DNA of 64,000 bases from the IMG/VR virus record IMGVR_UViG_3300027710_000027; one strand, given 5' to 3'. The DNA comes from a virus. The notes under the pieces are model-generated. The model saw only the letters and a list, made by a program, of their open reading frames with translations. It was not told where the DNA came from and made no database searches. A program made the position numbers and the translations under genes. Positions 1 through 32,018 of the stretch are shown here, piece after piece. Each line of letters opens with the position of its first letter. Positions within the stretch are counted from its first letter, which is position 1.

Positions 1-428
1 AGGTGGGTGCTAACTCAGACATTGAGCAGAAGGAGAAGAAGGACCGGGTGGACGATGCGGTGTGTGCAGTACGTGCAGCACTAGAAGAGGGCATCCTGCC
101 AGGTGGTGGCGTGGCGTTGAAGGACATCGCTGCTAAAATGGATGAGAATAACAAGGGTGATGAGATACTGCGCCTAGCAATGGTGGCACCAATGATGCGC
201 ATACTAGCTAACGCTGGGATCGACGTGAACGCAGAAGACTTTGACCAGGGACAGCAGTTATCAAAAGAGGGACTAGGCATCAACGTTGCAACAGGGGCCT
301 ACTGCCACATGATGAGCGTTGGGATCATTGACCCGACCAAGGTGACTAAAGAAGCTCTCAAGAACGCTGTGTCAGTGGCTACCACATTACTGTCAACAGA
401 GACTGTCATAACTAACATCCGTGCATAA
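1..428 (+). CDS. groEL: Chaperonin GroEL (Cpn60), C-terminal part; 5' truncated by the window edge
   Basis: KEKKDRVDDAVCAVRAALEEGILPGGGVAL and GIIDPTKVTKEALKNAVSVA are GroEL signature segments; no GGM tail. Confidence 0.97.
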   Translation, partial: VGANSDIEQKEKKDRVDDAVCAVRAALEEGILPGGGVALKDIAAKMDENNKGDEILRLAMVAPMMRILANAGIDVNAEDFDQGQQLSKEGLGINVATGAYCHMMSVGIIDPTKVTKEALKNAVSVATTLLSTETVITNIRA

Positions 429-7684: not shown

Positions 7685-7767
7685 GTTGCCATCTCACATT
7701 ACGCAACAAAGACAAAAACAGTCCTATAAATGAAACCGAGGTGAGATGCGGTGGATTTTGTAGGACT
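7685..7767 (+). ncRNA. Candidate structured 5' leader (two hairpins with complementary loops)
   Basis: Stem GTTGC/GCAAC; stem AGTCCTATAAA/TTTGTAGGACT with inner ACCG/CGGT; loop sequences CATCTCAC (7690-7697) and GTGAGATG (7741-7748) are perfectly complementary. Confidence 0.55.
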
Positions 7768-7777
7768 TATTTTTTAT

Positions 7778-8308
7778 ATGGAAATTTGGAAAGATGTTGT
7801 TGGCTATGAAGGGCACTTTATGGTTAGTGAAAGCGGAAAAGTTAAATCATTAGACAGGAAATATAAAAGGTCAGACGGATCTATATATCCTGTAACAGGA
7901 AAAGAATTAACGCCTTTTATTAGTAATGCAGGTTATAAAAGAATTTCACTTAGAAGAAATGGTAAACCAATGAAGTATTCTGTGCACAGATTAGTAGCTG
8001 AAGCATTTTTGCCTAGAGAAGAAGGTCGTGATTTTGTGAATCACCTAGATGGGAACAAATTAAACAATCACTATTCTAATTTAGAATGGGTGTCAATGAT
8101 TGAAAACAATTGTCATAGATTTAATAAAATAAATACAACTAGTAAATACACTGGCGTTACTTGGATAAAAGCAAAACAAAAGTATGTCGCAGTTATGCAA
8201 ATTAATGGTAAGCAAAAAACAATCGGTCATTTTATTTCAGAAGAAGATGCTTATGCTGCTAGATGTAAGTATGAAAAGGATAATGGTATAATAAATAAGT
8301 ATCTGTAA
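7778..8308 (+). mobile_element. Free-standing homing endonuclease (NUMOD4 + HNH + AP2-like)
   Basis: MEIWKDVVGYEGHFMVSESGKVKS (NUMOD4); VHRLVAEAF...VNHLDGNKLNNHYSNLEW (HNH_3); SKYTGVTW...TIGHFISEEDAYAAR (AP2). Confidence 0.92.
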
Positions 8309-8349: not shown

Positions 8350-11300
8350 ATGTGTGCTAGAATCTCAACGTATTCTCCCGATTTAGATGTCACCGGTAAC
8401 GACCGTTGGATAGGCTCGGACTGGCAAACTCCAGATAAATTAACCAAAAACTTTACAGCCAACGCTGTAGCGGAATACTTCAATCGTGTAGGTATTATTG
8501 ATACAGGTAGTTTTAATTGGTCATACAGAATGTATGCTCCAACAGAAACGCAGCCTGCGAAGACGTTTGAGTTAGTCGACCATCCATTTGATACAGTAGA
8601 TGTAATTGGACTCGCAGGGACCATCAAGGTTTCTTTCTTAACCATGGCCAACACAGAGCCAGGTATATTCATTGAAGAAGTTTGGAACGACAAGATTATT
8701 CTTGTTAATCGACCAGGATTCCCTAGCGAATACGGACTATACAAAGTAACAGCTGTTGTTGAAGATGGCGATTATTATTTCTTAGACTTAGATTTTATTG
8801 GCGGTAACTCAGGAACTATTTCTGAAGACGAGCCGGTTACATTTGGCTTATTCACAGGCGTGAGTGGTACAAGTGGTACTACAGGTACTTCAGGTACAAG
8901 TGGTACGACAGGTACATCAGGCACTAGTGGCGTAAACGGTACAAGCGGCTCATCAGGCACCACAGGTACAAGTGGCTCATCAGGCACGGCTGGCACAAGT
9001 GGGTCATCAGGTACAACAGGTACATCAGGCTCATCAGGCACAGGTGGCACATCAGGTACTAGCGGAACGAATGGTTCAGACGGCACCTCAGGTACACGTG
9101 GTACGTCAGGTACGTCAGGTATTGATGGTATCGATGGAACAGACGGTACGTCAGGAACAACAGGTACATCAGGTAGTTCAGGTACAGATGGCACAGGAGG
9201 TACATCGGGAATAGATGGTACTAGCGGTTCAAGTGGTTCAGGAGGAACTAGCGGGTCAAGTGGAATAGATGGCACATCAGGCACAGGAGGAACTAGCGGT
9301 ACAGATGGTACTGGCGGTACTTCGGGTACAGATGGCACAGGTGGTACTAGTGGTACTTCAGGGTCTAGTGGCTCATCAGGTATTGATGGCACTTCAGGAG
9401 TAAATGGCACATCAGGTATTGATGGAACTAGTGGCTCATCAGGTAGTTCAGGTACAGACGGAACAGGCGGTACATCAGGTACTACAGGTACTAGTGGTAC
9501 TTCAGGGTCATCAGGATTGACAGGATCATCAGGCACATCAGGTACTAACGGTAGTGCAGGTACATCAGGTGCTCAAGGAATATCTAGTGGTAGAATATAT
9601 TATTTAAACTACTCACAAGCAGGTTCTATATCCCCATACAAAAATTTGAGTGAGGAGCCTACAACATTGCCAGCTCCGTCTATTGTACCTGTATCTTTAA
9701 TAGCAAATGAGCAAGATAAGTTAGTAGCTCAATTTATTACAGAAGAATTAGGATTTACTATTATCCCGGCAGGTGTTCAAAGATTCACTTTAGAATATTT
9801 AAAAGAAGACCAAAGCGATAATATATCTACATATGCTAGTGTTCAGTTTACCCAATCAAACGGAACACCTATTGGTAGCCCTGTATTAACAAATACAGCC
9901 CCATTGGCTTGGGTTAACGCAACAACTCCTACTAATGTTTTTGTAGATGTAGTTTTTGCAACTACACCTATTGACCCAACATGGAAAGTATTAGTTAGTT
10001 TATATGTAAACAATGATGACAATCAATTAAGAGCATTAGATTTTTACACAGAGAACTCTGAGTACTCTTATGTAATTACATCAATAGGATTTGAGTCAGG
10101 CACATCAGGTACATCAGGTTCAAGCGGTGTTAACGGAACTAGTGGCTCTTCAGGACTTACAGGTTCTTCAGGTACTAGTGGAGAGTCGGGTACTAGTGGA
10201 ACCTCAGGAGCTGACGGTACAAGCGGAGTAAGCGGTACATCAGGAGTTAGTGGTACGTCAGGAGTAGATGGTACAAGCGGTGTTAGTGGCAGTAGTGGAA
10301 CAAGTGGAGAAAGCGGTTCAAGCGGAAGTTCAGGAGCAAGTGGAACAAGTGGTGTATCAGGTACATCAGGCATCAACGGAACTTCAGGAGTGAACGGTAC
10401 TAGTGGAGTTAACGGTACATCAGGCACGTCAGGTGTGAATGGAACATCAGGATCATCAGGTACAACTCCAGTTGGTCAGATTACAGGTACACTTACAACT
10501 AATAAAATACCTAAGGCTACAGGAGCCAATACAATTGGAGATAGTATTATCACAGAGGCATCAGGCTCAATCACTGTATCAGGTGCTGCGATTGATAATT
10601 ATGTGGCTAGTTTCATTAACACTGACCCAGGGTCTGCAGGTATATATGTAAAAGCAGATGGCCCTGCATTTGTTTGTGAACCATTATCGTTGGTTGGAGG
10701 AATCACTTTAAATGCTAGTGGTAGTGCATCATTTAGTGGGGACATCACTGCTAATAAATTTATTAAGTCAGGTGGTACATCTTCTCAGTTCTTAATGGCT
10801 GATGGCTCTGTTAACACATCTGTTTCACCAACAGGAGCTTATTTACCATTAGCAGGAGGTACGATGACAGGTGCAATCACATTAGTAAATGGTGCAATTG
10901 GAATAAATGTAGGAGATGATGCAACAATTTCAGATAGAAATATAGCTAATACAATATTTGTTGCAGGTATTCAAAATAATGACAGAGGATATATAAATTT
11001 TTCAGAAACAACAGGTAATTCGTTAGGTGCAGTTAATGGCGGTGCATTAACGTGGAGAGGTGTTGCAATTGCGACAACGGCAAATATATCAGGAACCATT
11101 AATTATGTGCCTAAGTTCACGGGTGCAAGTACTATTGGTAATAGTCAGATATTTGACAATGCAACAAATGTAGGAATTGGTACGGCTACACCTAATGCAA
11201 AACTTGAAATATATCCTGGCACAATAACAGGTAGTGCATTACAAGAAGTTTTAAGAATAGATGTCCCTGGGAATAATATATTTTCTTCTGCTACTGGATA

Positions 11301-13308
11301 TATAAACTTTAGAGGCTACGATCTTTCAAATACTACACAAAGAGACGTTGCTTATATTGGAGCTAAATTAGTTCCTAACGGAGGATCTTCTCCTGCAATG
11401 GGAGCAAATCTTGTTTTTAGTACTTGTGCGGATGGAGCATCTCAAACTCCTATTGAACGTATGAGTATAACGAGTGGGGGAGATATAGAATTTTTAAATT
11501 CTCTTGCACTTAAATCTGTGGCTTCAAGTGGATATATTGCAATGTATGCAAATGGGGGTGGGTTGTATTGGGGAGGCATTGCAGCTACTAATCAAATGCA
11601 TTTAACATCAGCTGGTTCATTAGGGATTAACACATTAACTCCTGTTAATACTGCTTGGGGAAGTGGTACAACAACCAAACAATTATCAATTAATGCATCA
11701 GGTTATGCAGTTATAAATTTACAAGGAGGAATTCGTAATTATTCAATGGGTGCTGGAGATGGCACTTTTTATATGTGTTATGATAACACAGCAGCACGTC
11801 ACAATATTACTGTTGCTTCATCAGGTAATATAACAATAAATGGAACAACAGACGCAGGCTTCAGACTTGATGTGAATGGTACGGGGAGGTTTAGTGGCAC
11901 AGGTAGAACACTTACGGTTGTATCAACAAATGATGCTGTACCTGCTGTAATTAGAAGTAGTAATGGAGCAATTTCAACTTTATCATTTCAAGGTACAACA
12001 TCTACAAATGATTTTAATACAAGAATAGGATGTGATGTAAATGATTTAGTTGCGTTTACTGCTAATGAAATTAGATTTCGAATAGCGTCTAATGGAGCCG
12101 CTAGCTTTCAAAGTAGTATTACCGCAGGAACTAATATTACAGCAGGTGGCACATTAAATGGTCAATCTTTAAATATAACAGGAACACAAAGCACATTTAG
12201 AATTGCATCAAATTATACAGGTGGAGGAGATTTACTATCAGGAACATTATTATATATTGATAATGTTGTTAATAATAATTTAACAATAATTCCTAGTAGT
12301 GCAGGAACTAATGGAAGTACAATTGTTGCTGCGGCATTTAATGGTAGTGCTTGGCGAAGTATGTGGGAATTTGCGAATGTTAGCAGTGGCAATCCGAATT
12401 TAATATTAGTAAAAAATGGAGGTAACGTCCTAATAGGTACCACAACGGATGCGGGAAACAGATTGTACGTTTCAGGAACGGGTAGATTTGATGGTCAAGT
12501 ATTAATTTCTACAGACTCGGGAAATGAGCAGTTTATTATCAGAAGAGGTAGCAATTTTAATCAACAATTAATATTAGGATATCACTCTTCAGGATATGGT
12601 AGAATACAAGCTGTAGAACAAGCTGTAGCTTATAGACCTTTAGTATTAAATGGAGATGGAGGCAATGTGTTAATTGGCACCACAACGGATAATGGATATA
12701 AATTAAATGTTGCAGGAACAGGAATTTTTAGTTCATTCTTAAAATTTAGGTGTGGATTTTATGCATATACACAAGATGGATTATTTAGTGCTAATGCTGC
12801 ATATTCAGCCCTTAATACACCTGGAGCAGATGATAGAATAAGGTTTGGTTATTATGATTATGGTTCAGGCCAATATTGGGGAAGAATAGGTTTTGCGGCA
12901 AATGTAAACTGGTCACTAGGTAACATTGGTTCTGCTGGAAATGATTTTAGTATAGGTACAGGAGCTGCAGGACAAATACTTCTTATAACATCAGCTGGTG
13001 CAACAACATTTAGCGGCTCTGTTACAGCAACATCATTCTTTGAGTCATCAGATAAAACTATTAAGACTCTACTTGTAGATAACTATGAAGCTAGAGGAAT
13101 TGAATCTGTTACAGCTAAGTTGTACATTAAGGATGGTAAGGAAGAGCTTGGATATTTTGCACAAGATGTACAAGGGATATTACCAAGTGCAGTAAGTGTT
13201 GGAGACAAAGGTTTATTAAGTCTTTCTTATCGTGAGGTACATACAGCTAAGATTGCAAGACTAGAGAAACGTGTGGAAGAATTAGAGAAACAACTAAACT
13301 TAAACTAA
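8350..13308 (+). CDS. Giant virion fibre with Gly-X-X Ser/Thr repeats and C-terminal intramolecular chaperone (peptidase S74-like)
   Basis: 1652 aa; two SGTSG blocks; repeated GNVLIGTTTD modules; C-terminal SSDKTIK...GYFAQDV...LSY plus coiled coil; TATTTTTG promoter at 8316-8323. Confidence 0.85.
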   Translation: MCARISTYSPDLDVTGNDRWIGSDWQTPDKLTKNFTANAVAEYFNRVGIIDTGSFNWSYRMYAPTETQPAKTFELVDHPFDTVDVIGLAGTIKVSFLTMANTEPGIFIEEVWNDKIILVNRPGFPSEYGLYKVTAVVEDGDYYFLDLDFIGGNSGTISEDEPVTFGLFTGVSGTSGTTGTSGTSGTTGTSGTSGVNGTSGSSGTTGTSGSSGTAGTSGSSGTTGTSGSSGTGGTSGTSGTNGSDGTSGTRGTSGTSGIDGIDGTDGTSGTTGTSGSSGTDGTGGTSGIDGTSGSSGSGGTSGSSGIDGTSGTGGTSGTDGTGGTSGTDGTGGTSGTSGSSGSSGIDGTSGVNGTSGIDGTSGSSGSSGTDGTGGTSGTTGTSGTSGSSGLTGSSGTSGTNGSAGTSGAQGISSGRIYYLNYSQAGSISPYKNLSEEPTTLPAPSIVPVSLIANEQDKLVAQFITEELGFTIIPAGVQRFTLEYLKEDQSDNISTYASVQFTQSNGTPIGSPVLTNTAPLAWVNATTPTNVFVDVVFATTPIDPTWKVLVSLYVNNDDNQLRALDFYTENSEYSYVITSIGFESGTSGTSGSSGVNGTSGSSGLTGSSGTSGESGTSGTSGADGTSGVSGTSGVSGTSGVDGTSGVSGSSGTSGESGSSGSSGASGTSGVSGTSGINGTSGVNGTSGVNGTSGTSGVNGTSGSSGTTPVGQITGTLTTNKIPKATGANTIGDSIITEASGSITVSGAAIDNYVASFINTDPGSAGIYVKADGPAFVCEPLSLVGGITLNASGSASFSGDITANKFIKSGGTSSQFLMADGSVNTSVSPTGAYLPLAGGTMTGAITLVNGAIGINVGDDATISDRNIANTIFVAGIQNNDRGYINFSETTGNSLGAVNGGALTWRGVAIATTANISGTINYVPKFTGASTIGNSQIFDNATNVGIGTATPNAKLEIYPGTITGSALQEVLRIDVPGNNIFSSATGYINFRGYDLSNTTQRDVAYIGAKLVPNGGSSPAMGANLVFSTCADGASQTPIERMSITSGGDIEFLNSLALKSVASSGYIAMYANGGGLYWGGIAATNQMHLTSAGSLGINTLTPVNTAWGSGTTTKQLSINASGYAVINLQGGIRNYSMGAGDGTFYMCYDNTAARHNITVASSGNITINGTTDAGFRLDVNGTGRFSGTGRTLTVVSTNDAVPAVIRSSNGAISTLSFQGTTSTNDFNTRIGCDVNDLVAFTANEIRFRIASNGAASFQSSITAGTNITAGGTLNGQSLNITGTQSTFRIASNYTGGGDLLSGTLLYIDNVVNNNLTIIPSSAGTNGSTIVAAAFNGSAWRSMWEFANVSSGNPNLILVKNGGNVLIGTTTDAGNRLYVSGTGRFDGQVLISTDSGNEQFIIRRGSNFNQQLILGYHSSGYGRIQAVEQAVAYRPLVLNGDGGNVLIGTTTDNGYKLNVAGTGIFSSFLKFRCGFYAYTQDGLFSANAAYSALNTPGADDRIRFGYYDYGSGQYWGRIGFAANVNWSLGNIGSAGNDFSIGTGAAGQILLITSAGATTFSGSVTATSFFESSDKTIKTLLVDNYEARGIESVTAKLYIKDGKEELGYFAQDVQGILPSAVSVGDKGLLSLSYREVHTAKIARLEKRVEELEKQLNLN
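8857..9590 (+). repeat. Gly-X-X (Ser/Thr/Asp/Asn) coding repeat, block 1
   Basis: About 240 aa with Gly every third residue; synonymous codons vary between units. Confidence 0.9.
10096..10462 (+). repeat. Gly-X-X coding repeat, block 2
   Basis: About 120 aa SGTSGVNG-type repeat. Confidence 0.9.
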
Positions 13309-13309
13309 T

Positions 13310-13744
13310 ATGTCTTGGGCAGGTTTAGCAAGTAATCAATGTGTTAGTTGGGCAAATCTACAGAATGCTGTAGACAATAATGTGTTCATACAAATTGGTT
13401 CAATCCCTCCTCCGGGCATACCTAGCAACAGGGAGATAACAAAAACAGGTGCATTATCAGCGGTTGATATTCAAGCAGCTCCATTGGCAGGCAAGAGTAA
13501 TAATCAGTTAGTAGTAAAGAGTAATTTAGTTGCTACTCCTGCTACCTACTACCAGCTTAATAACTGCTCAGGTGGTGCTGCTGCGTGGACAAAGATTGCT
13601 CCTACATTAGGAGTAGGACAGAGATATGTATTGCCTAGTATTACTCCTGTGTTCTATACTTATAATGGGACATCGCAAACTACGCTGCCTGCAGGATACA
13701 ATGGGTCAATACAAATAGTGTCAGGACAAACAGGTTGTCCTTAA
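13310..13744 (+). CDS. Fibre-associated protein with C-terminal Cys...CP module
   Basis: C-terminal about 65 aa resembles the C-terminus of 27882..32018. Confidence 0.7.
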   Translation: MSWAGLASNQCVSWANLQNAVDNNVFIQIGSIPPPGIPSNREITKTGALSAVDIQAAPLAGKSNNQLVVKSNLVATPATYYQLNNCSGGAAAWTKIAPTLGVGQRYVLPSITPVFYTYNGTSQTTLPAGYNGSIQIVSGQTGCP

Positions 13745-13773
13745 TTTTTAGTAATTTTAAAAAAAATATATAC

Positions 13774-14133
13774 ATGAAAACAATTTCACCAGTCTCTATT
13801 TGGGACAATGGCACAGTACAACAAGCAACTATATTAAATGCTTATGCAGTTAATGTAACTTTAAACACATCTGCTACTTTTTGGTACGGGTTATTTTCTA
13901 CAACAGAAAATGGTAATGTAGGTACACAACTTGCTCAAGGTAACTTATCAATGACAGGCGAGGCTTATGCTGAATGGCAGAGTGACGTTTTTGCTTGGGA
14001 TTGGATTGCAGAGCAATTAAACCTAACCATCACAGGAGACTATATTCCTCCGGTTCCTCCTGAGCCTACTCCTGAGCCTACGCCTGAACCTATTGTAGAG
14101 GAAGTAGTTGCATCTGAAGAACCTATTGCTTAA
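13774..14133 (+). CDS. Conserved fibre-locus protein with PEPT tail
   Basis: ATG 13774 MKTISPVSIW...WIAEQLNLTITG then PPVPPEPTPEPTPEP. Confidence 0.7.
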   Translation: MKTISPVSIWDNGTVQQATILNAYAVNVTLNTSATFWYGLFSTTENGNVGTQLAQGNLSMTGEAYAEWQSDVFAWDWIAEQLNLTITGDYIPPVPPEPTPEPTPEPIVEEVVASEEPIA

Positions 14134-14155
14134 ATTTGTTAAAAATAACATAAAT

Positions 14156-14425
14156 ATGAAACTAAACTTTAATTTTAATCTAACCGATTTAGACGGTAAA
14201 GAACTAGAAGGTGCTAATTCTGGAAAGTTATTAGCTAACACACTTATTCAGCAGACCAAGGGTGATGCTGTGAAGTATTGGGAATGGGCTCTTGCTTTAA
14301 ACAAAGGTGAAGTTCTTGACCTAGATACGTCGGATCAAGAGACTCTTAAGACTTTTGTGAAAGACAGTGAGACTATTACTGTTTTAGCTAAGGCCCAATT
14401 GCTTGGCGTTTTTACTAAGAAGTAA
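14156..14425 (+). CDS. Hypothetical protein (possible fibre assembly factor)
   Basis: ATG 14156 MKLNFNFNLTDLDGK. Confidence 0.6.
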   Translation: MKLNFNFNLTDLDGKELEGANSGKLLANTLIQQTKGDAVKYWEWALALNKGEVLDLDTSDQETLKTFVKDSETITVLAKAQLLGVFTKK

Positions 14426-16417
14426 TATTACATCATCAGCAGATATACTCCTCTGGCACTCAAAATGTCGGGGAGTATTTTTAAAGATGGGGCACCAGTC
14501 CCAATCCCCCGCATCGAATTTAAAGTTAGGGTTGTTCCAACAACTGTTGCATACTGACTTGTTAGTCACACGTATACACTCAAACTCGTGGCCATCTGCA
14601 GCGAAGTTATTAATCATAACTACTTCTTTCCCTAATGCATTTGCTAACCATGAGACTCCGCTGCCTAAGCCTAGGTAAAATTGACTATGGTGAATAATAG
14701 CCATTGTCTTTTGGATGTCATAATTAATAATCTGCTCACAGTTATCAAAAGGATTAGGCTCAAGTGATACATTAATTACTTTGTAGCCTTTTCCGTGCAA
14801 ATAGTTTATCACTCCTTGCCATCCCTCTTTTGTCCAAAACTTACACCCAGCTGTAGAATTAGTAGCTATCGTAATATATTTACCATAGTTATTATTACCT
14901 GGCTCATACTTTAATTTAGGCATAATCTCTTTAAACTCAAGTCCTAATATCTTAGTAGCTGCCTCTTGTAATTTAATTGTGTTAGGTAGTTCAGGCTCTT
15001 TGTTTGTGTCGTAGAACCAGCCAATGTTATATTGAGCATACACGTTAGGCACCACTGTTCCAGGTTTTACTAACTCTATTTCAGGAATGTCAAGTATTTT
15101 GTTCAAAAAAGTTGACATAATTACTTTACACTTATGCTTCTTTTGGAATTCTAAAGCGTATGGAGCCCAAGCAATTGTGTCGCCTAATGACTTACTAGAT
15201 ATAGCGATGTACACACGCTTGCCTTCTAGGTCGAGTACGTTATCGTGAATTAGTTTACCATCCATATAGACTTTACTATGCCACTTAGTATAGTATTGTC
15301 TATTTAGTTTTACCCAACTATTTGATCCGATAGTATTCTCGTAGACTAACTTGTCGCCATCAAAGTATTGTACCTTAAAGTCGGCTTTCAGTCCTGATTT
15401 AATTTCTAGGTATGGTTGACCAACAAAGTGTTGGATGATGGTTACATCTTGTTCTTGTTTGTCTAGTGTCATTACTTTATTATAGAATGCCATTTGTTTA
15501 TCCCAGAATTTCCAAGATGTATTATCTGTAGGTATAGTGTAATTACATTTAATAGTATTTAAGTCAGTATCTATGGGTTGAATATACTTATTAAACATTG
15601 AGCCATATTGTGGCAGGTTGTGAGCTATAATTGGCTTACCAAAAGATATTGCCTCACGTAATACCAAAGGGTTACACTCCCAAGTAGAGTTGAACATAAA
15701 TATATCTGCCCATCTCATATAATTTTCTACATCTCTTCTTTCTCCCCATATTTTCACATTGGCTGGCAAATCCTTCATTAATGGCTCCCAGTAATGCTTG
15801 AAATTTATAGCTTGGTTTCCAACAAAGTGAAAGTTCATATGTGGATACTTCTTAGCTATTTCAAGACCCTCAGCTTGGTTTTTACCAGGAGTCCATAATC
15901 CCACATTGACTACGTTTATTTCTCTTGTGTCAAAAGGATTTAGATACAGGTCATTTCTTTTATCATCTATTGGAAACTCAATCACCTCTTTGTAAGATGG
16001 CGATGAAGCGAATGTCTCTAAGTGATATGGTGTGCAGAAGTAATACGCATCAGGATTAAATATCTTTTCTTTGTCATGGTTAAATGACACGTCGTGACAC
16101 GTCTCCACAATTCTGTACCTTCGGTCTTCACGATATAATTCAGATATCATATCACGATTAAAGCGTTCAGCTGGCTCGTGAATGTGAACAATGTCAGGGT
16201 TGAACTTAGCTATGATATTAAATAATTCCATCTTGTCCTCGTGCAAAGTATGAAAAGGAACAAGACTTTTAATGGCATTACGTTGTACGACATAATCTAG
16301 GCTATGGCATTGATACTCTACCACCTCTATATCTAAATTACTGCAGATAATACTTTGTAAAACAAATGCAGGCATCCCGCCAGTTGAACAGTGAGGAATT
16401 AAGTATAGTAGCTTCAT
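14384..16417 (-). CDS. Two-domain glycosyltransferase: GT-B (GT4-like) fused to a TibC/Aah-type O-heptosyltransferase-like domain
   Basis: N-terminal HCSTGGMP...ADIFMFNSTWECNPLVLREA; C-terminal KRVYIAISSKSLGDTIAWAPY and C-x2-C-x15-C-x11-C (CNSCW...WCP...FEC). Confidence 0.85.
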   Translation of the reverse strand: MKLLYLIPHCSTGGMPAFVLQSIICSNLDIEVVEYQCHSLDYVVQRNAIKSLVPFHTLHEDKMELFNIIAKFNPDIVHIHEPAERFNRDMISELYREDRRYRIVETCHDVSFNHDKEKIFNPDAYYFCTPYHLETFASSPSYKEVIEFPIDDKRNDLYLNPFDTREINVVNVGLWTPGKNQAEGLEIAKKYPHMNFHFVGNQAINFKHYWEPLMKDLPANVKIWGERRDVENYMRWADIFMFNSTWECNPLVLREAISFGKPIIAHNLPQYGSMFNKYIQPIDTDLNTIKCNYTIPTDNTSWKFWDKQMAFYNKVMTLDKQEQDVTIIQHFVGQPYLEIKSGLKADFKVQYFDGDKLVYENTIGSNSWVKLNRQYYTKWHSKVYMDGKLIHDNVLDLEGKRVYIAISSKSLGDTIAWAPYALEFQKKHKCKVIMSTFLNKILDIPEIELVKPGTVVPNVYAQYNIGWFYDTNKEPELPNTIKLQEAATKILGLEFKEIMPKLKYEPGNNNYGKYITIATNSTAGCKFWTKEGWQGVINYLHGKGYKVINVSLEPNPFDNCEQIINYDIQKTMAIIHHSQFYLGLGSGVSWLANALGKEVVMINNFAADGHEFECIRVTNKSVCNSCWNNPNFKFDAGDWDWCPIFKNTPRHFECQRSISADDVILLLSKNAKQLGLS

Positions 16418-16466
16418 ATGCTAAAATTAAAATATAATTAGTACTTTTACAAAAAAATATAATACA

Positions 16467-16721
16467 ATGGATAAATTAACACAAGACGAGTTGGACCGTT
16501 TCAGAGCGGCTCACACAGAAATCAGAAATCTTCGCAATGCTTTGGCAGACGCTGAGATTCAAATCCACAACACCAAGTTAGAGAAGCAATCTGTTTTAGC
16601 TCAATTAGATGTAGCTGGTGCAACGCACGTTAGCATTCAGCAAGAACTACACGCTAAGTACGGAGATATCACGATTGACTTTGCTACTGGAGAAATCAAG
16701 AATAAAGATGGTAATTCGTAA
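16467..16721 (+). CDS. Coiled-coil hypothetical protein
   Basis: Heptad pattern, ends KYGDITIDFATGEIK. Confidence 0.65.
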   Translation: MDKLTQDELDRFRAAHTEIRNLRNALADAEIQIHNTKLEKQSVLAQLDVAGATHVSIQQELHAKYGDITIDFATGEIKNKDGNS

Positions 16722-16927: not shown

Positions 16928-17491
16928 ATGAAGTCCCCATTTTACTTTATAGTGCAACCCCGTGATGGCAAGAGATATGACAACACGAGGGGAGAGCTCA
17001 TTATTTCTACATCGAAAGAAGACCACCTTGCCACTATGCGTGAGGCTGTTGTTATCTCTACGCCTATTGGATACGAGGGTCCTGTTGAACCAGGCGATAC
17101 GATTATTGTGCATCACAATACTTTTAGGTTGTATTACGATATGCGTGGTAGAGAGAAGTCTGCTTGGAATTACTTCCGAGAGGACTTGTACTTTATTGAT
17201 GATCCGTATGCATACAAGAAACCTGGTGCAGATTGGATTGGTATTGGTCGCTACGTGTTTATTTCTCCTGTGGAGAATGACTACACAGGCATACTTACTG
17301 CGGACGCAGAGAAGCCTCTTGTAGGCACGATAAAGTACCCGAATGAAGAAGCACTAGCATTAGGATTAAAAGAGGGTGACACGGTCACGTTTGAGCCTGA
17401 GAGCGAGTATCCATTCTATATTGATGGTCAGAAAGTGTACCGTATGTATACTAAGAATCTAACAATTAAATTAGATGAACAAAATAACTGA
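16928..17491 (+). CDS. Tandem double GroES-like protein
   Basis: Two Cpn10-like units: FIVQP...GELIIS...AVVISTP...VEPGDTIIVHHN and VFISP...GTIKYP...LKEGDTVTF...IDGQKVYRM. Confidence 0.65.
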   Translation: MKSPFYFIVQPRDGKRYDNTRGELIISTSKEDHLATMREAVVISTPIGYEGPVEPGDTIIVHHNTFRLYYDMRGREKSAWNYFREDLYFIDDPYAYKKPGADWIGIGRYVFISPVENDYTGILTADAEKPLVGTIKYPNEEALALGLKEGDTVTFEPESEYPFYIDGQKVYRMYTKNLTIKLDEQNN

Positions 17492-27881: not shown

Positions 27882-30800
27882 ATGATAGAACTTCAAAGAA
27901 ATTTCCTTTCAGGGGTTATGAATAAGGACCTCGACCCACACTTCTTACCTGATGGGGCATATCGAGATGCGCTTAATATTATTGTAGGCGACTCTGATGG
28001 TGCATTTGTTGAGGAGGATGGCAGTCGTAATGGTGTAGCCCAAAACTATTTGGGTAATATTTTAAAAGGCGAAGACTTGGAGTTAACTAATGCTACTTGC
28101 ATTGGCTCGCTGGCTGTTGAGGCTAACAATTCTATTTATTGGTTGGTGGCATCTGACACATTAGATGCGGTGTATGAGTATAACGAAACGTTAGATATAA
28201 CAACTCCTGTACTTCGGGCTACTAAGTTAACACCCACTACGACTTCATTGCTTGGCTTTGACAAGGCGTATTTCGTTACAGGCATCAACTATATCAACGG
28301 ACTTCTTTTTTGGACTGACAACCTAAATCCTCCACGTAGGATTAATGTTGATCGTGCAAAGAATTATGCAGTAGATGGGTTTACTGAAGCTGACATAAAT
28401 GTTATCTTAGCCCCTCCATTAGAGGCTCCTGCAATTAATTTATATTCAGAAGGAGAAGCTAATAATTTAGAGAATAAGTTTCTTTACTTTTCTTATCGCT
28501 ACAAGTATTTAGATAATGAGTACAGCGCATTGTCTCCATTTTCACCTGTAGCATTCTTCCCAAAAGAATATGCTTACGATTATGGAGTGTCAGAAAACAT
28601 ATCTATGGTTAATAACTTTAACACAGCAGATATAACTTTTAACTCTGGGTCAAAGAACGTAAAAGAAATCCAATTAGTATTTAGAGACACTCAAAGTACT
28701 AACACATACATAATTGATAGCTTAGTTAAAGAGCTAAATAATTATAACGACAATACAGAGTATTCTTTTAAGTTCAAAAACAATAAAGTATTCACGTTAC
28801 TTCCTGCTGAGCAATTAAATAGACTTTTTGACAACGTGCCAATTAAGGCGAAGTCTCAAGAATTAATTGGTAGTAGATTGGTGTATGGCAACTATACTCA
28901 GTTCTTTAATTTATTAAAGGAAAATAAGGAGCCAATTAACCCAGCTTTCTCATTATCATTAGTAACGCAATCTATTTTAAGCGGCACTCCTACTCCTACA
29001 TTTAAGAGTAATAGAGATTACGAAATAGGTATTGTATATTTAGATGATTATGGTAGAATGACTACTGTAATTACACCAACAGAGAATACTAACACAATTT
29101 ATATTCCTGCATCAAATGCTATCACCGGAAATAATATCCGTGTAACTATTGATGGTACTTATGAGCCACCTTCTTTTGCGACTCATTATAGATTTGTAAT
29201 TAAGCAAGATAAGCAAGAATACTATAACGTATTCCCATTGACTTATTTTGAAGACGGGCAATTCAAGTGGTTTTTAATTAACCAAGCAGACCAAGATAAA
29301 ATATCTGTTGGCTCTTACGTATATCTTAAGAGTGCAACAAATAATACTAATATTCAGTATAAGATATTAGATATCCAATCTAAGAATGCAAACTTCTTAA
29401 ACAGTGCTGATTCTAATCAGCCTGCTGGTGTATACTTTAGAATTAAGATAGAGTCATCTGTATTGCCTCCTCTTACATATTTCTACGACTACAATGTTGG
29501 AGGTGGAGAAGATCCACCTAGCACACTAGTTACGGATAGATTTAATGTTGCTGAGAACGCTATTTTTTATGGTGTTGGCATCAACGATATGATAGTAGGT
29601 GCAAGCAATGCTTACACAGGAGCAAATGATGCTAGGTTCTATGTTGAGATTGACTCTACATCAGGTGTAGCTGATACATTTAAGTATTATGTTTCATATG
29701 ATGGCAACTACAAAGTATTAGTTGCTAGTGGAATTACAATTAACTCAGCTGCTGACCAAACACTAACTTATTCAGGTAGTACTTGTTCTATTAGATTCTT
29801 GTCAAACACAGGCCACAGAACAAAGGACTATTGGGTTGTTAATTGTAGAGGTAATTTAGAAGATGTATGTTTAAATATATTTGGTGGGCTTATTGACCAT
29901 AGCACTCCTGTACCGGGCGTATTTTTTACTTTAGATGGATGGAGTCCATCACCGGGTGATAATCAAGATAGACCTGTTAATGCAGGTGCTATATTGACGT
30001 TTAAATACAAGGAGACTAACGGTACTGACCAATGGATTACTCAAACATTTATATCAACAAAAGATTACGTAAATATTGAGGAGTGGTTTATTGAAGATGG
30101 AGCATATCAGAAATGGATTGCTTTAGATGAATCAGATCAAAGTATTGGGCCTAAGAATGTTTGCTTTAGACGTGGGGTATTAGTTTCTACTGGTAGACCA
30201 GGTCTTATATCACAAGGGTCAACTATTGCTCCAAGCACTTTGACGTACCCTGTGTACATGTATTTTTATTCATTCCAGGGGGGAGTTGAACCTGCTATTG
30301 ATACACAGTTTTCATTACAGCAGTCTGAGTTCCCATCTTTGTTTGAAACAGTTCCATTAGACACCAACCAAGATATATATTATGAGCTTTCACAAACGTA
30401 TCCTATTATCGATGGCAATCACTATGGAAATGTTGACAATCAGAATATTGCATTGGGTGCTCCGGCGATAATAAGTTTAAACACGTTTAACTTTAATTCC
30501 GATTTTAACGCATTCTCATTTGGTAATGGAGTAGAAAGTTTTAGAATTAGAGATGACTTTAATTCTGCAACAATGCAATTTAGTCCACGTGCTAATTCAA
30601 CTATTGAAGGATACGAACAACAAACAGTTGTTCAAGCACTAACATATAGTGGTATTTATACTGAAACAACTGCAATTAATAGGTTAAATGAGTTTAACTT
30701 ATCACTTGGTAACTTTAAGTATTTAGATAGATTCTTTGGGTCTATTCAAAAATTATTCTCTCGTGATACAGATTTAATTGTATTACAAGAAAGTAAAGTA

Positions 30801-32018
30801 TCTAAGGTTCTTTATGGTAAGAATTTATTGAGTGACTCTACAGGTGGAGGCGTTGTTGCATCCATTCCTGAGGTATTGGGTACTCAGATTTCTTACGAAG
30901 GTGAGTATGGAATTAGTTTAAACCCAGAGAGTTTTACTAAATGGGGGAATGATTTATTCTTCACAGATGCTAGACGTGGTGCTGTAATGGCATTACAACC
31001 TAATGGGTTATTTGAGATATCATCTCAAGGCATGAAAAACTGGTTTAAGGCGAACCTAGATACCAATACAGTAAAACTAGGTATGTTTGATCCATACTTC
31101 GAGCATTATGTTTTAGCTGTAGATAACGATAGAAAGATTGAAACTTGTTATATCTCAGTAACGCCTACTAGTTTATCTTTCAATGGCACAGTGCAAAAGA
31201 AATCATTCTATATTGAGTCAAATACAGATTGGGTAATAACGGTGCCTACTAACGGATGGTTGACGATTAGTGATAGATTTGGGTCAAATAACCAACTGAT
31301 ATATGTTGAGGTTTTAGAAAACTTAGGAGCTCCAAGAAGTTTAAATATCACTGTATCAGGATGTACAGATGACATTACTATAGCAGTTACACAAGCTACA
31401 AAGCCAGTTGTTTATGACTGGTATGAGTTATTGAATTGTGAGACATTAAATACTATATTTTCTGAACAATACGCAGAAGGATCATTTGATTTAAATGAGC
31501 GTGTTACTTCTGATGGTGATACGTATACTATTACAGATATTCTAAACACTGAGCCTGAGGGCGAATTAATACCTATTACTACAACAGGAGAAGAGGGATG
31601 CCCTACTCCAACTTTTGATTGGTATGCATTATACAAGTGTTCTGACGGATCTACAGCTAACTCTCAGGCATATGCGATAGGCACATTCTCTGTTAATGAT
31701 AGAGTTGAATCAGGTGGGTCTACTTACTCTATAACTAGCGTATTGGGATCAAGCCCTGGTGGAACATTAATATCAATTACAGATACAGGTTTAACAGGAT
31801 GTCCTACATTGACAACTTACTATGAGTTGTCTGAGTGTTCCCCTGGTGTTGGTATTGCATACACTACGATAGTACCAGTTTCTGTAGGAAGAAGATATGT
31901 ATTGCCTAGTATGACCCCTGTATTCTACACTTACACAGGAGCTACGCTTACACAAAGCACACCTCCACCTGCATACAATGGCTCAATTCAAATTACACCG
32001 TTCTATAGTTGTCCGTAA
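27882..32018 (+). CDS. Tail nozzle/muzzle (P22 gp10 / T7 gp12-like) with C-terminal Cys-module repeats
   Basis: RNFLSGVMNKDLDPHFLPDGAYRDALNI start, propeller-like repeats, YFTDARRGAV-like motif; three terminal Y..L..C...CP units. Confidence 0.75.
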   Translation: MIELQRNFLSGVMNKDLDPHFLPDGAYRDALNIIVGDSDGAFVEEDGSRNGVAQNYLGNILKGEDLELTNATCIGSLAVEANNSIYWLVASDTLDAVYEYNETLDITTPVLRATKLTPTTTSLLGFDKAYFVTGINYINGLLFWTDNLNPPRRINVDRAKNYAVDGFTEADINVILAPPLEAPAINLYSEGEANNLENKFLYFSYRYKYLDNEYSALSPFSPVAFFPKEYAYDYGVSENISMVNNFNTADITFNSGSKNVKEIQLVFRDTQSTNTYIIDSLVKELNNYNDNTEYSFKFKNNKVFTLLPAEQLNRLFDNVPIKAKSQELIGSRLVYGNYTQFFNLLKENKEPINPAFSLSLVTQSILSGTPTPTFKSNRDYEIGIVYLDDYGRMTTVITPTENTNTIYIPASNAITGNNIRVTIDGTYEPPSFATHYRFVIKQDKQEYYNVFPLTYFEDGQFKWFLINQADQDKISVGSYVYLKSATNNTNIQYKILDIQSKNANFLNSADSNQPAGVYFRIKIESSVLPPLTYFYDYNVGGGEDPPSTLVTDRFNVAENAIFYGVGINDMIVGASNAYTGANDARFYVEIDSTSGVADTFKYYVSYDGNYKVLVASGITINSAADQTLTYSGSTCSIRFLSNTGHRTKDYWVVNCRGNLEDVCLNIFGGLIDHSTPVPGVFFTLDGWSPSPGDNQDRPVNAGAILTFKYKETNGTDQWITQTFISTKDYVNIEEWFIEDGAYQKWIALDESDQSIGPKNVCFRRGVLVSTGRPGLISQGSTIAPSTLTYPVYMYFYSFQGGVEPAIDTQFSLQQSEFPSLFETVPLDTNQDIYYELSQTYPIIDGNHYGNVDNQNIALGAPAIISLNTFNFNSDFNAFSFGNGVESFRIRDDFNSATMQFSPRANSTIEGYEQQTVVQALTYSGIYTETTAINRLNEFNLSLGNFKYLDRFFGSIQKLFSRDTDLIVLQESKVSKVLYGKNLLSDSTGGGVVASIPEVLGTQISYEGEYGISLNPESFTKWGNDLFFTDARRGAVMALQPNGLFEISSQGMKNWFKANLDTNTVKLGMFDPYFEHYVLAVDNDRKIETCYISVTPTSLSFNGTVQKKSFYIESNTDWVITVPTNGWLTISDRFGSNNQLIYVEVLENLGAPRSLNITVSGCTDDITIAVTQATKPVVYDWYELLNCETLNTIFSEQYAEGSFDLNERVTSDGDTYTITDILNTEPEGELIPITTTGEEGCPTPTFDWYALYKCSDGSTANSQAYAIGTFSVNDRVESGGSTYSITSVLGSSPGGTLISITDTGLTGCPTLTTYYELSECSPGVGIAYTTIVPVSVGRRYVLPSMTPVFYTYTGATLTQSTPPPAYNGSIQITPFYSCP

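What the first reader, a model, noticed from the sequence alone, without database searches (positions are those of the whole stretch)
8350..16417. Candidate phage virion O-glycosylation system: TibC/Aah-type plus GT4 fusion beside a Ser/Thr-repeat fibre
14384..16417 carries the LGDTxAW motif and the exact C-x2-C-x15-C-x11-C iron-binding pattern of the TibC/Aah autotransporter O-heptosyltransferases, which hyper-glycosylate Ser/Thr in repetitive adhesins. It is fused to a second GT-B domain that could extend the glycan. It is the only antisense gene in this block, looks like a moron with its own 49-nt divergent promoter region, and lies three small genes from a fibre with well over a hundred Ser/Thr acceptors. 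Hypothesis: the phage builds a glycan-coated, mucin-like fibre for stability, adhesion or receptor masking. Many Bacteroidota lack heptose LPS, so the donor sugar may not be ADP-heptose.
Basis: partly seen in the sequence, partly recalled or inferred. Interest (0 to 1): 0.8.

Follow-up and report, generated by a model that had tools for sequence, protein, structure and literature searches.

The report
Phage glycosyltransferase paired with collagen-like fibre
An uncultured freshwater phage carries a two-headed sugar-adding enzyme, related to the bacterial enzymes that sugar-coat adhesins, beside a tail fibre with collagen-like Gly-Thr-Ser repeats; the same pairing recurs across very different phages, so these phages probably sugar-coat their own fibres, although no experiment has shown it.

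Summary
Window 14384-16417 (-) encodes a 677-aa fusion of a GT4 domain and a TibC/Aah-type (BAHT) protein O-glycosyltransferase. It scores 233.8 bits on TIGR04414 (cut-off 200). TibC is the top fold match (TM 0.82-0.85). The catalytic Asp, the beta-phosphate Thr/Lys, the sugar-contacting Trp and all four iron cysteines are kept.

One correction: the 'Ser/Thr repeats' of the fibre (8350-13308) are 122 proline-free collagen-type G-X-Y triplets holding 183 Ser/Thr.

- 41 of 59 GT loci, from about 10 deep clades, hold an S/T-rich collagen-like ORF, against 0 of 120 random viral loci.
- 9 of 15 G-T-S-collagen contigs hold a TibC-like gene, against 0 of 10 control contigs.
- 25 related phage loci without the GT have no S/T-rich collagen.
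- Most apparent exceptions dissolved when whole contigs were searched; two short fragments remain uninformative.
- The pairing also occurs in cultured Microcystis phage Mel-JY01 and in a 735-kb megaphage.

The phage enzymes differ from TibC: the adenine-contacting Arg is Thr, and the dodecamer 'thumb' is 10 residues shorter. The donor sugar is unresolved.

The gene is part of a swappable fibre cassette, not a free-standing moron. I found no publication describing this. This scan has noted similar cassettes on at least 8 other genomes. All evidence is comparative; there is no biochemistry.

The parts
14384..16417 (-). Gene for a 677-aa bifunctional glycosyltransferase (P0001): GT4 domain fused to a TibC/Aah-type (BAHT) domain
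   Evidence: dN/dS against relatives is 0.07-0.12. One search found 2925 homologues with E <= 0.001; the 120 listed are mostly full-length fusions carrying both domains.
15518..16417 (-). GT4 (retaining GT-B) domain, about aa 1-300, with E-x7-E motif E247/E255, H108, K179 and R227
   Evidence: PF00534 E 3.6e-10 and PF13692 E 1.3e-9. The residues are invariant or nearly so in 36 homologues. After TibC, the fold resembles BshA, PglA, HepE, MshA and PimA.
15227..15460 (-). Flattened beta-barrel, about aa 320-397, equivalent to the TibC N-terminal barrel
   Evidence: The AF2 model has strands at 325-394. The Foldseek alignment covers about 372 columns of the 380-390-residue TibC chains. TIGR04414 matches from aa 350.
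14387..15226 (-). TibC-type catalytic GT-B domain with iron finger. Key residues: D413, T522, K526, W590 and Cys623/626/642/654. T571 replaces TibC Arg286. The thumb segment 551-568 is 10 aa shorter than in TibC.
8350..13308 (+). Tail-fibre gene (P0002, 1652 aa), the presumed acceptor
   Evidence: PHROG tail-fibre families score down to E 4.5e-38. Pfam Collagen E 6e-42. The N-terminal 168 aa are conserved in a GT-less relative.
8857..9585 (+). Collagen-like block 1: 81 uninterrupted G-X-Y triplets (aa 170-412), mainly GTS and GSS, no Pro
10099..10467 (+). Collagen-like block 2: 41 G-X-Y triplets (aa 584-706)
12991..13308 (+). C-terminal module of about 105 aa shared by many of the collagen-like fibres; a possible intramolecular chaperone/trimerisation domain
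   Evidence: Weak Peptidase_S74 hit (E 0.022, below cut-off). phrog_33119 E 5e-4. Homologous C-termini occur in the fibres of L021 and L028 and in the L024 variant fibre.
13310..13744 (+). Small ORF (144 aa) of the cassette. Its last 64 aa are 59% identical to the C-terminus of the 1378-aa virion protein (27882-32018).
   Evidence: E 5e-18. No Pfam or PHROG hit.
13735..14133 (+). Small ORF (132 aa), function unknown. A homologue also exists in the GT-less relative L381.
14156..14425 (+). Small ORF (89 aa from the ATG at 14156). It converges on the GT gene and overlaps its 3' end by 42 nt.
16418..16466 (.). 49-nt AT-rich divergent intergenic spacer between the GT start and ORF 16467-16721
   Evidence: No exact TAnnTTTG motif. 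The sigma-70 scan is not informative.

Best explanation
The gene encodes a cytoplasmic, bifunctional protein O-glycosyltransferase. It belongs to a phage-specific branch of the TibC/Aah (BAHT) family that is always fused to a retaining GT4 domain.

I infer that it glycosylates Ser/Thr side chains in the proline-free collagen-like G-[T/S]-[S/T] repeats of the fibre encoded in the same cassette. This would happen while the fibre chains are made and before or during trimerisation. One domain would attach the first sugar and the other would add a second sugar. Which domain does which is unknown.

Related phages add methyltransferase, GT2, a second GT9 or PIG-L de-N-acetylase domains to the same polypeptide. 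This indicates a short, tailored glycan.

The window encodes no sugar-nucleotide synthesis genes that I could detect, so the donors would come from host pools.

The most likely benefit is stabilisation, hydration and protease protection of a triple helix that has neither proline nor many charge pairs. Known analogies are glycosylated Thr in BclA-type collagen-like proteins and in worm cuticle collagen.

Shown: domain identities, conserved catalytic residues, purifying selection and co-occurrence. Inferred: the acceptor, the order of the two transfers, the sugars and the benefit.
For: Enzyme identity:
- TIGR04414 over cut-off.
- phmmer to TibC 4rap, E 1.5e-42.
- AF2 model pLDDT 88.4, with TibC as top fold hit at TM 0.82-0.85.
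- The equivalents of TibC D110, T226, K230, W305 and the four Cys are invariant or nearly so in 36 fusions, as is the GT4 E-x7-E motif.
- dN/dS 0.07-0.12.

Linkage to S/T-collagen:
- 41 of 59 GT loci against 0 of 120 random IMG/VR loci.
- Nearly every deep clade of the GT tree has at least one such neighbour.
- Exceptions were resolved in whole contigs.
- In reverse, 9 of 15 G-T-S-collagen contigs carry a TibC-like gene against 0 of 10 control contigs.
- 25 terminase relatives without the GT have no S/T-rich collagen. GenBank relative MW202828 has neither.
- The cassette is swapped as one unit.
- The same pairing occurs in Microcystis phage Mel-JY01 and in megaphage LR756501.
- The collagen repeat is the only feature shared by all partner proteins.
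- Bacterial stand-alone homologues in Negativicutes sit beside large S/T-rich (about 20% Ser/Thr) proteins that I did not identify, not beside collagen. They keep the TibC Arg and thumb.

Precedent: C. difficile sgtA, next to bclA3, O-GlcNAcylates Thr in GPT collagen repeats (PMC7157674).
Against: - There is no biochemical or proteomic evidence.
- The co-occurrence counts treat related loci as independent.
- GT and fibre may travel together simply as a cassette.
- In the 104-kb contig of L024, an 85%-identical GT sits beside a fibre variant without G-X-Y repeats. The same contig also holds a collagen-bearing copy.
- One 84%-complete G-T-S-collagen contig lacks a TibC-like gene, so such fibres do not strictly need this enzyme.
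- TibC acts on a folded beta-helix, not on collagen. The distal fibre has a weak, sub-threshold hit to an autotransporter-adhesin GIN domain, so that part could be the acceptor instead.
- The GT4 halves of some relatives hit Pfam 'GT4-conflict'.
Confidence: 0.6

Rival explanations
1. The enzyme glycosylates virion proteins, but the acceptor is not the collagen-like repeat. It could be the Ser/Thr-rich, probably beta-structured distal part of the fibre, or another virion protein such as the small cassette protein or the 1378-aa protein that shares a module with it.
For: - Canonical BAHT substrates are beta-helical passenger domains (PMC4358343).
- Fibre aa 1100-1500 has a weak DUF2807 'autotransporter adhesin head GIN' hit (E 0.0016, below cut-off).
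- The whole fibre is 26% Ser/Thr.
- The L024 variant keeps the GT beside a collagen-less fibre.
- ORF 13310-13744 shares a module with a virion protein.
Against: Partner proteins in other clades share nothing with the window's fibre outside the G-X-Y repeats: the L033 protein with 852 triplets and the Mel-JY01 protein. GT-less relatives have long, Ser/Thr-containing fibres without collagen.
Confidence: 0.15
2. The enzyme modifies host envelope glycans or host surface proteins. The purpose would be superinfection exclusion, receptor masking or counter-defence. Its linkage to fibre genes would reflect only the location of accessory genes in the host-range region.
For: - Phage GTs are usually interpreted as O-antigen or DNA modifiers (review statements in PMC7029224).
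- GT9 and GT4 families are mostly envelope-glycan enzymes.
- The GT4 halves of some relatives hit PF20706 GT4-conflict.
- The gene is antisense to the late block.
Against: - The match is to the protein-modifying BAHT equivalog, not to the LPS heptosyltransferases (233.8 bits against 14-19 bits).
- No integrase or lysogeny genes were found among the ORFs scanned.
- This reading does not explain the specific, two-way association with S/T-rich collagen across unrelated phage backbones.
Confidence: 0.1
3. GT and collagen-like fibre are co-inherited in a mobile fibre cassette without being enzyme and substrate. For example, the GT might build a glycan that is a ligand or assembly cofactor, or it might act on a fibre chaperone.
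For: The cassette is swapped as a unit. The mosaic modules of the fibres show frequent recombination.
Against: In several contigs the GT and the collagen gene lie tens of kilobases apart yet still co-occur, for example in the L030 contig; whole-contig searches also found TibC-like genes outside the fetched collagen stretches. This argues for a functional rather than a purely physical link.
Confidence: 0.08
4. The enzyme glycosylates phage DNA, in the manner of the T4 glucosyltransferases, to evade restriction.
For: Phage DNA glucosyltransferases also have the GT-B fold (own knowledge).
Against: - No hydroxymethyl-pyrimidine synthesis genes were detected in the window.
- There is specific membership of the protein-modifying BAHT family.
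- The gene is placed in the fibre cassette.
Confidence: 0.02

Closest known systems
TibC / AAH bacterial autotransporter heptosyltransferases (BAHT family; PDB 4rap, 4rb4; PMC4358343)
   Same: - The sequence family is the same (TIGR04414 over cut-off).
- The fold is the same, including the N-terminal beta-barrel.
- The catalytic Asp, the beta-phosphate Thr/Lys and the sugar-contacting Trp are kept.
- The 1Fe-0S iron finger has identical Cys spacing.
- Both hyper-modify Ser/Thr in a long repetitive surface fibre encoded nearby. This is established for TibC and inferred here.
   Different: - The phage enzyme is always fused to a GT4 domain.
- The adenine-contacting Arg286 is Thr.
- The Pro300/Ser294 stereoselectivity site is Gly/Ser.
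- The beta-hairpin thumb that builds the dodecamer is 10 residues shorter and lacks Phe265/Val266.
- The partner is a collagen-like phage fibre, not a beta-helical autotransporter.
- The donor sugar is unknown.
Clostridioides difficile SgtA-BclA3, and the glycosylated Bacillus BclA exosporium collagen-like proteins (PMC7157674, PMC8968730)
   Same: A glycosyltransferase gene sits next to a collagen-like protein gene. Thr residues inside G-X-T triplets are O-glycosylated. The product is a surface filament.
   Different: - SgtA is a GT-A enzyme with TPR repeats, unrelated to BAHT or GT4.
- Its repeats are GPT (proline-rich), whereas here they are GTS/GSS with no proline.
- The setting is a bacterial spore, not a phage virion.
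Mycobacteriophage virion glycosylation (Che8, Corndog, Myrna; Freeman et al. 2023, recalled from my own knowledge; cited by papers listed)
   Same: Phage-encoded glycosyltransferases O-glycosylate the phage's own structural proteins in the host cytoplasm.
   Different: The enzyme families differ. There the acceptors are C-terminal tails of capsid and tail-tube proteins, not collagen-like fibres. The hosts are Actinobacteria.
Mimivirus collagen hydroxylation/glycosylation (mentioned in PMC8968730)
   Same: A virus modifies its own collagen-like proteins with sugars.
   Different: In Mimivirus the sugar goes on hydroxylysine and is added by a bifunctional hydroxylase/glucosyltransferase. The setting is a eukaryotic giant virus.

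Membership tests
BAHT (TibC/AAH protein O-heptosyltransferases) | Sequence membership: the TIGR04414 equivalog model scores over its curated cut-off | tested here: met
   233.8 bits against a cut-off of 200, over aa 350-665. Distant phage relatives score 208-317 bits.
BAHT (TibC/AAH protein O-heptosyltransferases) | Fold: N-terminal flattened beta-barrel plus GT-B catalytic domain | tested here: met
   AF2 pLDDT 88.4. Foldseek to 4rap/4rb4 gives E about 1e-26 and TM (target) 0.82-0.85 over about 372 columns.
BAHT (TibC/AAH protein O-heptosyltransferases) | Catalytic base Asp110 and beta-phosphate ligands Thr226/Lys230 | tested here: met
   D413 and K526 are found in 36 of 36 sequences and T522 in 35 of 36.
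BAHT (TibC/AAH protein O-heptosyltransferases) | Iron finger: four Cys with C-x2-C-x15-C-x11-C spacing | tested here: met
   Cys623/626/642/654 are invariant and align with TibC Cys339/342/358/370. Metal binding itself was not tested.
BAHT (TibC/AAH protein O-heptosyltransferases) | Arg286 contact to adenine N1, the basis of ADP-sugar specificity | tested here: not met
   The position is Thr in 34 of 36 phage fusions and never Arg. Most bacterial stand-alone homologues, including all the Negativicutes ones, keep Arg.
   The segment is 18 aa here against 28 aa in TibC and the bacterial homologues, and the tip residues are absent. The oligomeric state was not tested.
BAHT (TibC/AAH protein O-heptosyltransferases) | Cognate autotransporter (AIDA-I/TibA-type beta-helix) substrate encoded nearby | tested here: not met
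   No autotransporter is present in the window. The neighbour is a collagen-like fibre. Negativicutes homologues instead sit beside large S/T-rich proteins of 1000-3300 aa.
BAHT (TibC/AAH protein O-heptosyltransferases) | Transfers heptose from ADP-heptose | not testable with these tools
   - Trp305, which contacts heptose O4, is kept, but Arg286 is lost.
- The window has no heptose pathway genes that I could detect.
- rfaE-domain-II genes are present in 47 of 121 sampled Flavobacteriales-order genomes.
GT4 retaining glycosyltransferases | GT-B fold with the E-x7-E motif and Pfam Glycos_transf_1 over threshold | tested here: met
   PF00534 scores 40.1 bits against a cut-off of 26.4. E247 is found in 36 of 36 sequences and E255 in 35 of 36. 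The fold resembles BshA, PglA and MshA.
Collagen-like (triple-helix) proteins | Long uninterrupted Gly-X-Y periodicity | tested here: met
   Pfam Collagen E 6e-42. Runs of 81 and 41 triplets. Triple-helix formation itself was not tested. The repeats have no Pro and only 17 charged residues.
Phage virion O-glycosylation systems | Glycan demonstrably attached to a virion protein in a GT-dependent way | not testable with these tools
   Only co-occurrence evidence is available.

The most novel reading that the evidence does not exclude
Glycosylation stands in for hydroxyproline. A phage-specific branch of the autotransporter heptosyltransferases, fused to a GT4 and often to sugar-tailoring domains, decorates nearly every triplet of proline-free G-T-S collagen. 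This is what makes such triple helices stable. On this reading there is a widespread, undescribed class of glycosylated collagen-like fibres on phages ranging from 40-kb viruses to megaphages and cyanophages.
Probability: 0.35. Interest if true: 0.85.

Novelty: new variant of a known kind. Interest (0 to 1): 0.7.

Why it matters
If true, a large and environmentally abundant set of phages builds glycoprotein fibres with its own enzymes. One search found 2925 homologues in the protein collection, and the set includes a cultured cyanophage and megaphages.

This would:
- extend phage virion glycosylation beyond mycobacteriophages;
- give the BAHT family a second substrate class, collagen-like helices;
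- explain how proline-free, almost uncharged Gly-Thr-Ser repeats can form stable fibres;
- matter for host recognition, virion stability in water, and the annotation of 'LPS-type' glycosyltransferases in phage genomes;
- provide enzymes for making glycosylated recombinant collagen-like materials.

Tried and rejected
- A sigma-70 promoter scan found 17 sites against 13.1 expected. It is uninformative and the wrong model for Bacteroidota.
- A search for the Bacteroidota -7 motif found nothing in the 49-nt spacer, and the motif is not enriched in the window (96 sites against 80 expected). The promoter claim stays untested.
- PHROGs has no family for the GT.
- Megablast of the region against GenBank phages found nothing.
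- Only 4 of 50,697 GenBank phage records hold a relative of the GT.
- Literature searches for TibC or heptosyltransferase in phages, and for the NCBIfam product name, found no description of this pairing.
- The window's whole genome is not held.
- L024 looked like a true exception: a GT beside a collagen-less fibre. I set it aside as weak. The identical GT in the complete 65-kb contig of L010 has a collagen-bearing fibre that wraps around the contig ends. The 104-kb L024 contig holds both fibre versions.
- The Mel-JY01 'cytidylyltransferase-like' neighbour was a possible ADP-heptose synthase. It has only a marginal Pfam hit and no NCBIfam hit, so I dropped it.
- I sent no complex prediction. 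Enzyme-substrate contact with a collagen helix is not something that test can judge.

Full report
**What is there**

The window is almost a whole phage genome of about 65 kb. Homologous contigs are 65-68 kb long. It carries:
- GroEL/GroES, an endolysin and an HNH endonuclease;
- a fibre gene, a large terminase and a portal;
- large virion proteins on the plus strand;
- a replication/nucleotide module (RNR, primase, SSAP) on the minus strand.

The nearest cultured relatives by terminase are podoviruses of Flavobacterium, Cellulophaga and Tenacibaculum (44% identity). The nearest GenBank record is a spring-water metagenomic podovirus, MW202828 (67%). Near-identical DNA occurs in subsurface and freshwater metagenomes. 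A Bacteroidota host is likely but not shown.

**The enzyme**

ORF 14384-16417 (-) gives a 677-aa protein.
- The C-terminal half passes the curated cut-off of NCBIfam TIGR04414, 'autotransporter strand-loop-strand O-heptosyltransferase' (233.8 bits against 200).
- It aligns with TibC (PDB 4rap) at E 1.5e-42.
- An AlphaFold2 model built on 36 homologues has pLDDT 88.4. Its best PDB matches are the TibC chains, with TM 0.82-0.85 normalised to TibC and about 372 aligned columns, including the N-terminal beta-barrel.

I used the TibC structure paper to name the functional residues (PMC4358343). The equivalents of the following are invariant or nearly so in the 36 phage fusions:
- catalytic Asp110 (D413);
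- Thr226/Lys230, the beta-phosphate ligands (T522, K526);
- Trp305, which contacts heptose O4 (W590);
- the four iron ligands Cys339/342/358/370 (C623/626/642/654, same spacing).

The N-terminal half is a GT4 domain with the E-x7-E signature (E247, E255). After TibC, its fold is most like retaining GT4 enzymes such as BshA, PglA, MshA and PimA.

dN/dS against seven relatives is 0.07-0.12 over the full length. Both halves are therefore under purifying selection.

**How it differs from TibC**

- Arg286, which reads the adenine of ADP-heptose, is Thr in 34 of 36 phage enzymes.
- The Pro300/Ser294 site, which sets D,D- versus L,D-heptose preference, is Gly or Ser.
- The beta-hairpin thumb that links dimers into the TibC dodecamer is 10 residues shorter and lacks its tip residues.
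- Stand-alone chromosomal homologues in Negativicutes keep the Arg and the full-length thumb. These two changes therefore mark the phage branch.
- The donor sugar and the oligomeric state are unknown.
- I found no sugar-nucleotide synthesis gene in the window.
- An rfaE-domain-II adenylyltransferase scores over cut-off in 47 of 121 sampled genomes of a Flavobacteriales-type order. Host ADP-heptose is therefore not excluded.

**The fibre**

ORF 8350-13308 (+) gives a 1652-aa protein with strong tail-fibre PHROG hits and Pfam Collagen at E 6e-42.
- The 'Ser/Thr repeats' are two uninterrupted runs of 81 and 41 G-X-Y triplets.
- Thr or Ser fills 78% of X positions and Ser or Thr fills 72% of Y positions.
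- The runs hold 183 Ser/Thr, no proline and only 17 charged residues.
- Codons are varied: 77 distinct 9-mers among 122 triplets.

**Co-occurrence, forward direction**

A scan of IMG/VR with the GT returned 59 loci.
- 41 of them contain an ORF with at least 8 consecutive G-X-Y triplets whose X/Y positions are 62-96% Ser/Thr.
- None of 120 loci fetched with a random 14-mer does. Only three of those hold any collagen-like ORF, and these are 8-18% Ser/Thr.
- On a tree of the TibC-like domain there are about ten deep clades, at 36-58% identity to the window. Nearly all have such neighbours.
- The GT4 + TibC-like fusion is universal in these clades. Some add GT2, methyltransferase, a second GT9 or PIG-L de-N-acetylase domains.

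Most negatives were truncated contigs. Whole-contig pattern searches found the missing collagen arrays in the contigs of L007, L010 and L030. The two remaining negatives are 10-11% fragments.

L024 is a special case. An 85%-identical GT lies beside a 1722-aa fibre without G-X-Y repeats. However, its 104-kb contig also contains a collagen-bearing fibre copy about one genome length away. The identical GT in the complete contig of L010 has a collagen fibre.

**Co-occurrence, reverse direction**

I fetched 120 loci with a degenerate (G-T-[S/T])x4 DNA pattern.
- 7 had a TibC-like ORF inside the short stretch fetched, against 0 of 120 controls.
- Whole-contig searches with TIGR04414 were positive in 9 of 15 such contigs, and in 4 of the 5 that are at least 80% complete. 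They were positive in 0 of 10 random control contigs.

**Family-matched control**

- Among terminase relatives at 67-80% identity with at least 5 kb of upstream sequence, 25 loci lack the GT. None has an S/T-rich collagen ORF.
- MW202828 has neither the GT nor such a fibre.
- The GT-less relative L318 keeps the N-terminal 168 aa of the fibre and the genes from 16467 onward. Everything between them (fibre body, small ORFs, GT) is replaced by another fibre body plus a 611-aa ORF.
- The GT is therefore a component of a swappable fibre cassette rather than an independent moron.

**Other phage backbones**

- The cultured Microcystis phage Mel-JY01 carries an unannotated plus-strand ORF with 202 GTS/GSS-type triplets. 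This is followed by a 'structural protein' and a 1226-aa protein with GT4 and TibC-like domains, which GenBank annotates as an FkbM methyltransferase.
- The 735-kb megaphage LR756501 has a 699-aa ORF with 35 S/T-rich triplets 3.6 kb from its GT.
- In one group of ten contigs with identical loci (68-92 kb), the partner protein is 3122 aa with 852 triplets.
- With G-X-Y runs masked, the partner proteins are mosaic. Several share nothing with the window's fibre. The repeat is the common denominator.

**Statistics and caveats**

Fisher tests give 1e-26 (forward), 0.003 (reverse, contig level) and 5e-9 (family-matched). They treat loci as independent, which they are not. The number of deep clades and of distinct backbones is the better measure. 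All evidence is comparative.

**Comparison with what is known**

- TibC/AAH hyper-heptosylate Ser in beta-helical autotransporters. This enzyme is a sequence and fold member of that family but fails three of its defining features: the adenine-binding Arg, the thumb and the autotransporter partner.
- The closest functional precedent is C. difficile SgtA. It is encoded next to bclA3 and O-GlcNAcylates Thr in GPT collagen repeats (PMC7157674). BclA glycosylation is thought to aid the hydration network of the helix (PMC8968730).
- Phage virion glycosylation is known for mycobacteriophages (own knowledge). Four literature searches found no description of TibC-type enzymes in phages or of their link to collagen-like fibres.
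- Earlier notes of this scan describe similar cassettes on at least eight other genomes. They agree with this reading but are not independent evidence.

**Verdict**

The central interpretation is well supported by comparative genomics but is untested at the bench. The promoter and moron details are not supported. I class this as a new variant of a known kind.

Noticed in passing
L300:2-3049 (+) (Microcystis phage Mel-JY01, PP395634.1): A 1016-aa open frame with 202 GTS/GSS-type collagen triplets runs off the start of the linear record. GenBank does not annotate it and instead lists minus-strand 'hypothetical' CDSs at 1-651 and 739-2298. The true gene probably wraps around the record ends.
   Followed up: partly
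L033-L038 and L040-L043:11477-20842 (-): A 3122-aa ORF with 852 G-X-Y triplets (94% Ser/Thr at X/Y) lies directly beside the GT in ten contigs of 68-92 kb. As a triple helix it would be several hundred nanometres long.
   Followed up: no
L024 (IMG/VR contig of 104,271 bp): The contig spans about 1.6 genome lengths and holds two versions of the fibre region, one with collagen repeats (contig 1665-2179) and one without (L024:13099-18264). It is either a chimeric assembly of two strains or evidence of co-circulating fibre variants with an identical GT.
   Followed up: partly
window 13310-13744 and 27882-32018: The last 64 aa of the small cassette protein are 59% identical (E 5e-18) to the C-terminus of the 1378-aa virion protein. 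A small module is shared between the fibre locus and another structural protein.
   Followed up: partly
window 7751-8308: A NUMOD4 + HNH_3 (+ weak AP2) homing-endonuclease gene lies directly upstream of the fibre gene. In relatives L317 and L318 its homologue (40% identity) sits directly upstream of the terminase instead, so it appears to be mobile.
   Followed up: partly
window 14384-14425: The small ORF ending at 14425 and the GT gene converge and overlap by 42 nt. A terminator-like hairpin at 14451-14473 (+) lies inside the GT coding region.
   Followed up: no
L046:5574-9305, L051:2-2824, L030:67-4584, L039:8255-11074: Relatives add further domains to the same polypeptide: PIG-L de-N-acetylase (L046, L051), methyltransferase plus a second GT9 (L030) and GT2 (L039). 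The PIG-L domain hints at a HexNAc in the glycan, by analogy with the BshA/BshB and MshA/MshB pairs.
   Followed up: no
L401-L434 (Negativicutes genomes): Stand-alone BAHT homologues of 410-450 aa occur in Selenomonadales and Acidaminococcaceae. Several lie next to large (1000-3300 aa) proteins with about 20% Ser/Thr that I did not identify. These may be canonical BAHT-substrate pairs in diderm Firmicutes.
   Followed up: partly
Genomes G033-G155 (order of a Flavobacteriales MAG): An rfaE-domain-II-type adenylyltransferase of about 165-185 aa scores over the TIGR02199 cut-off in 47 of 121 sampled genomes, mostly small aquatic ones. ADP-heptose synthesis may be commoner in this order than assumed.
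   Followed up: no
window 3-428, 750-1007, 16928-17491: The phage encodes the C-terminal end of a GroEL at the window start, a GroES, and a 187-aa GroES-like protein (phrog_13932) next to the terminase.
   Followed up: no
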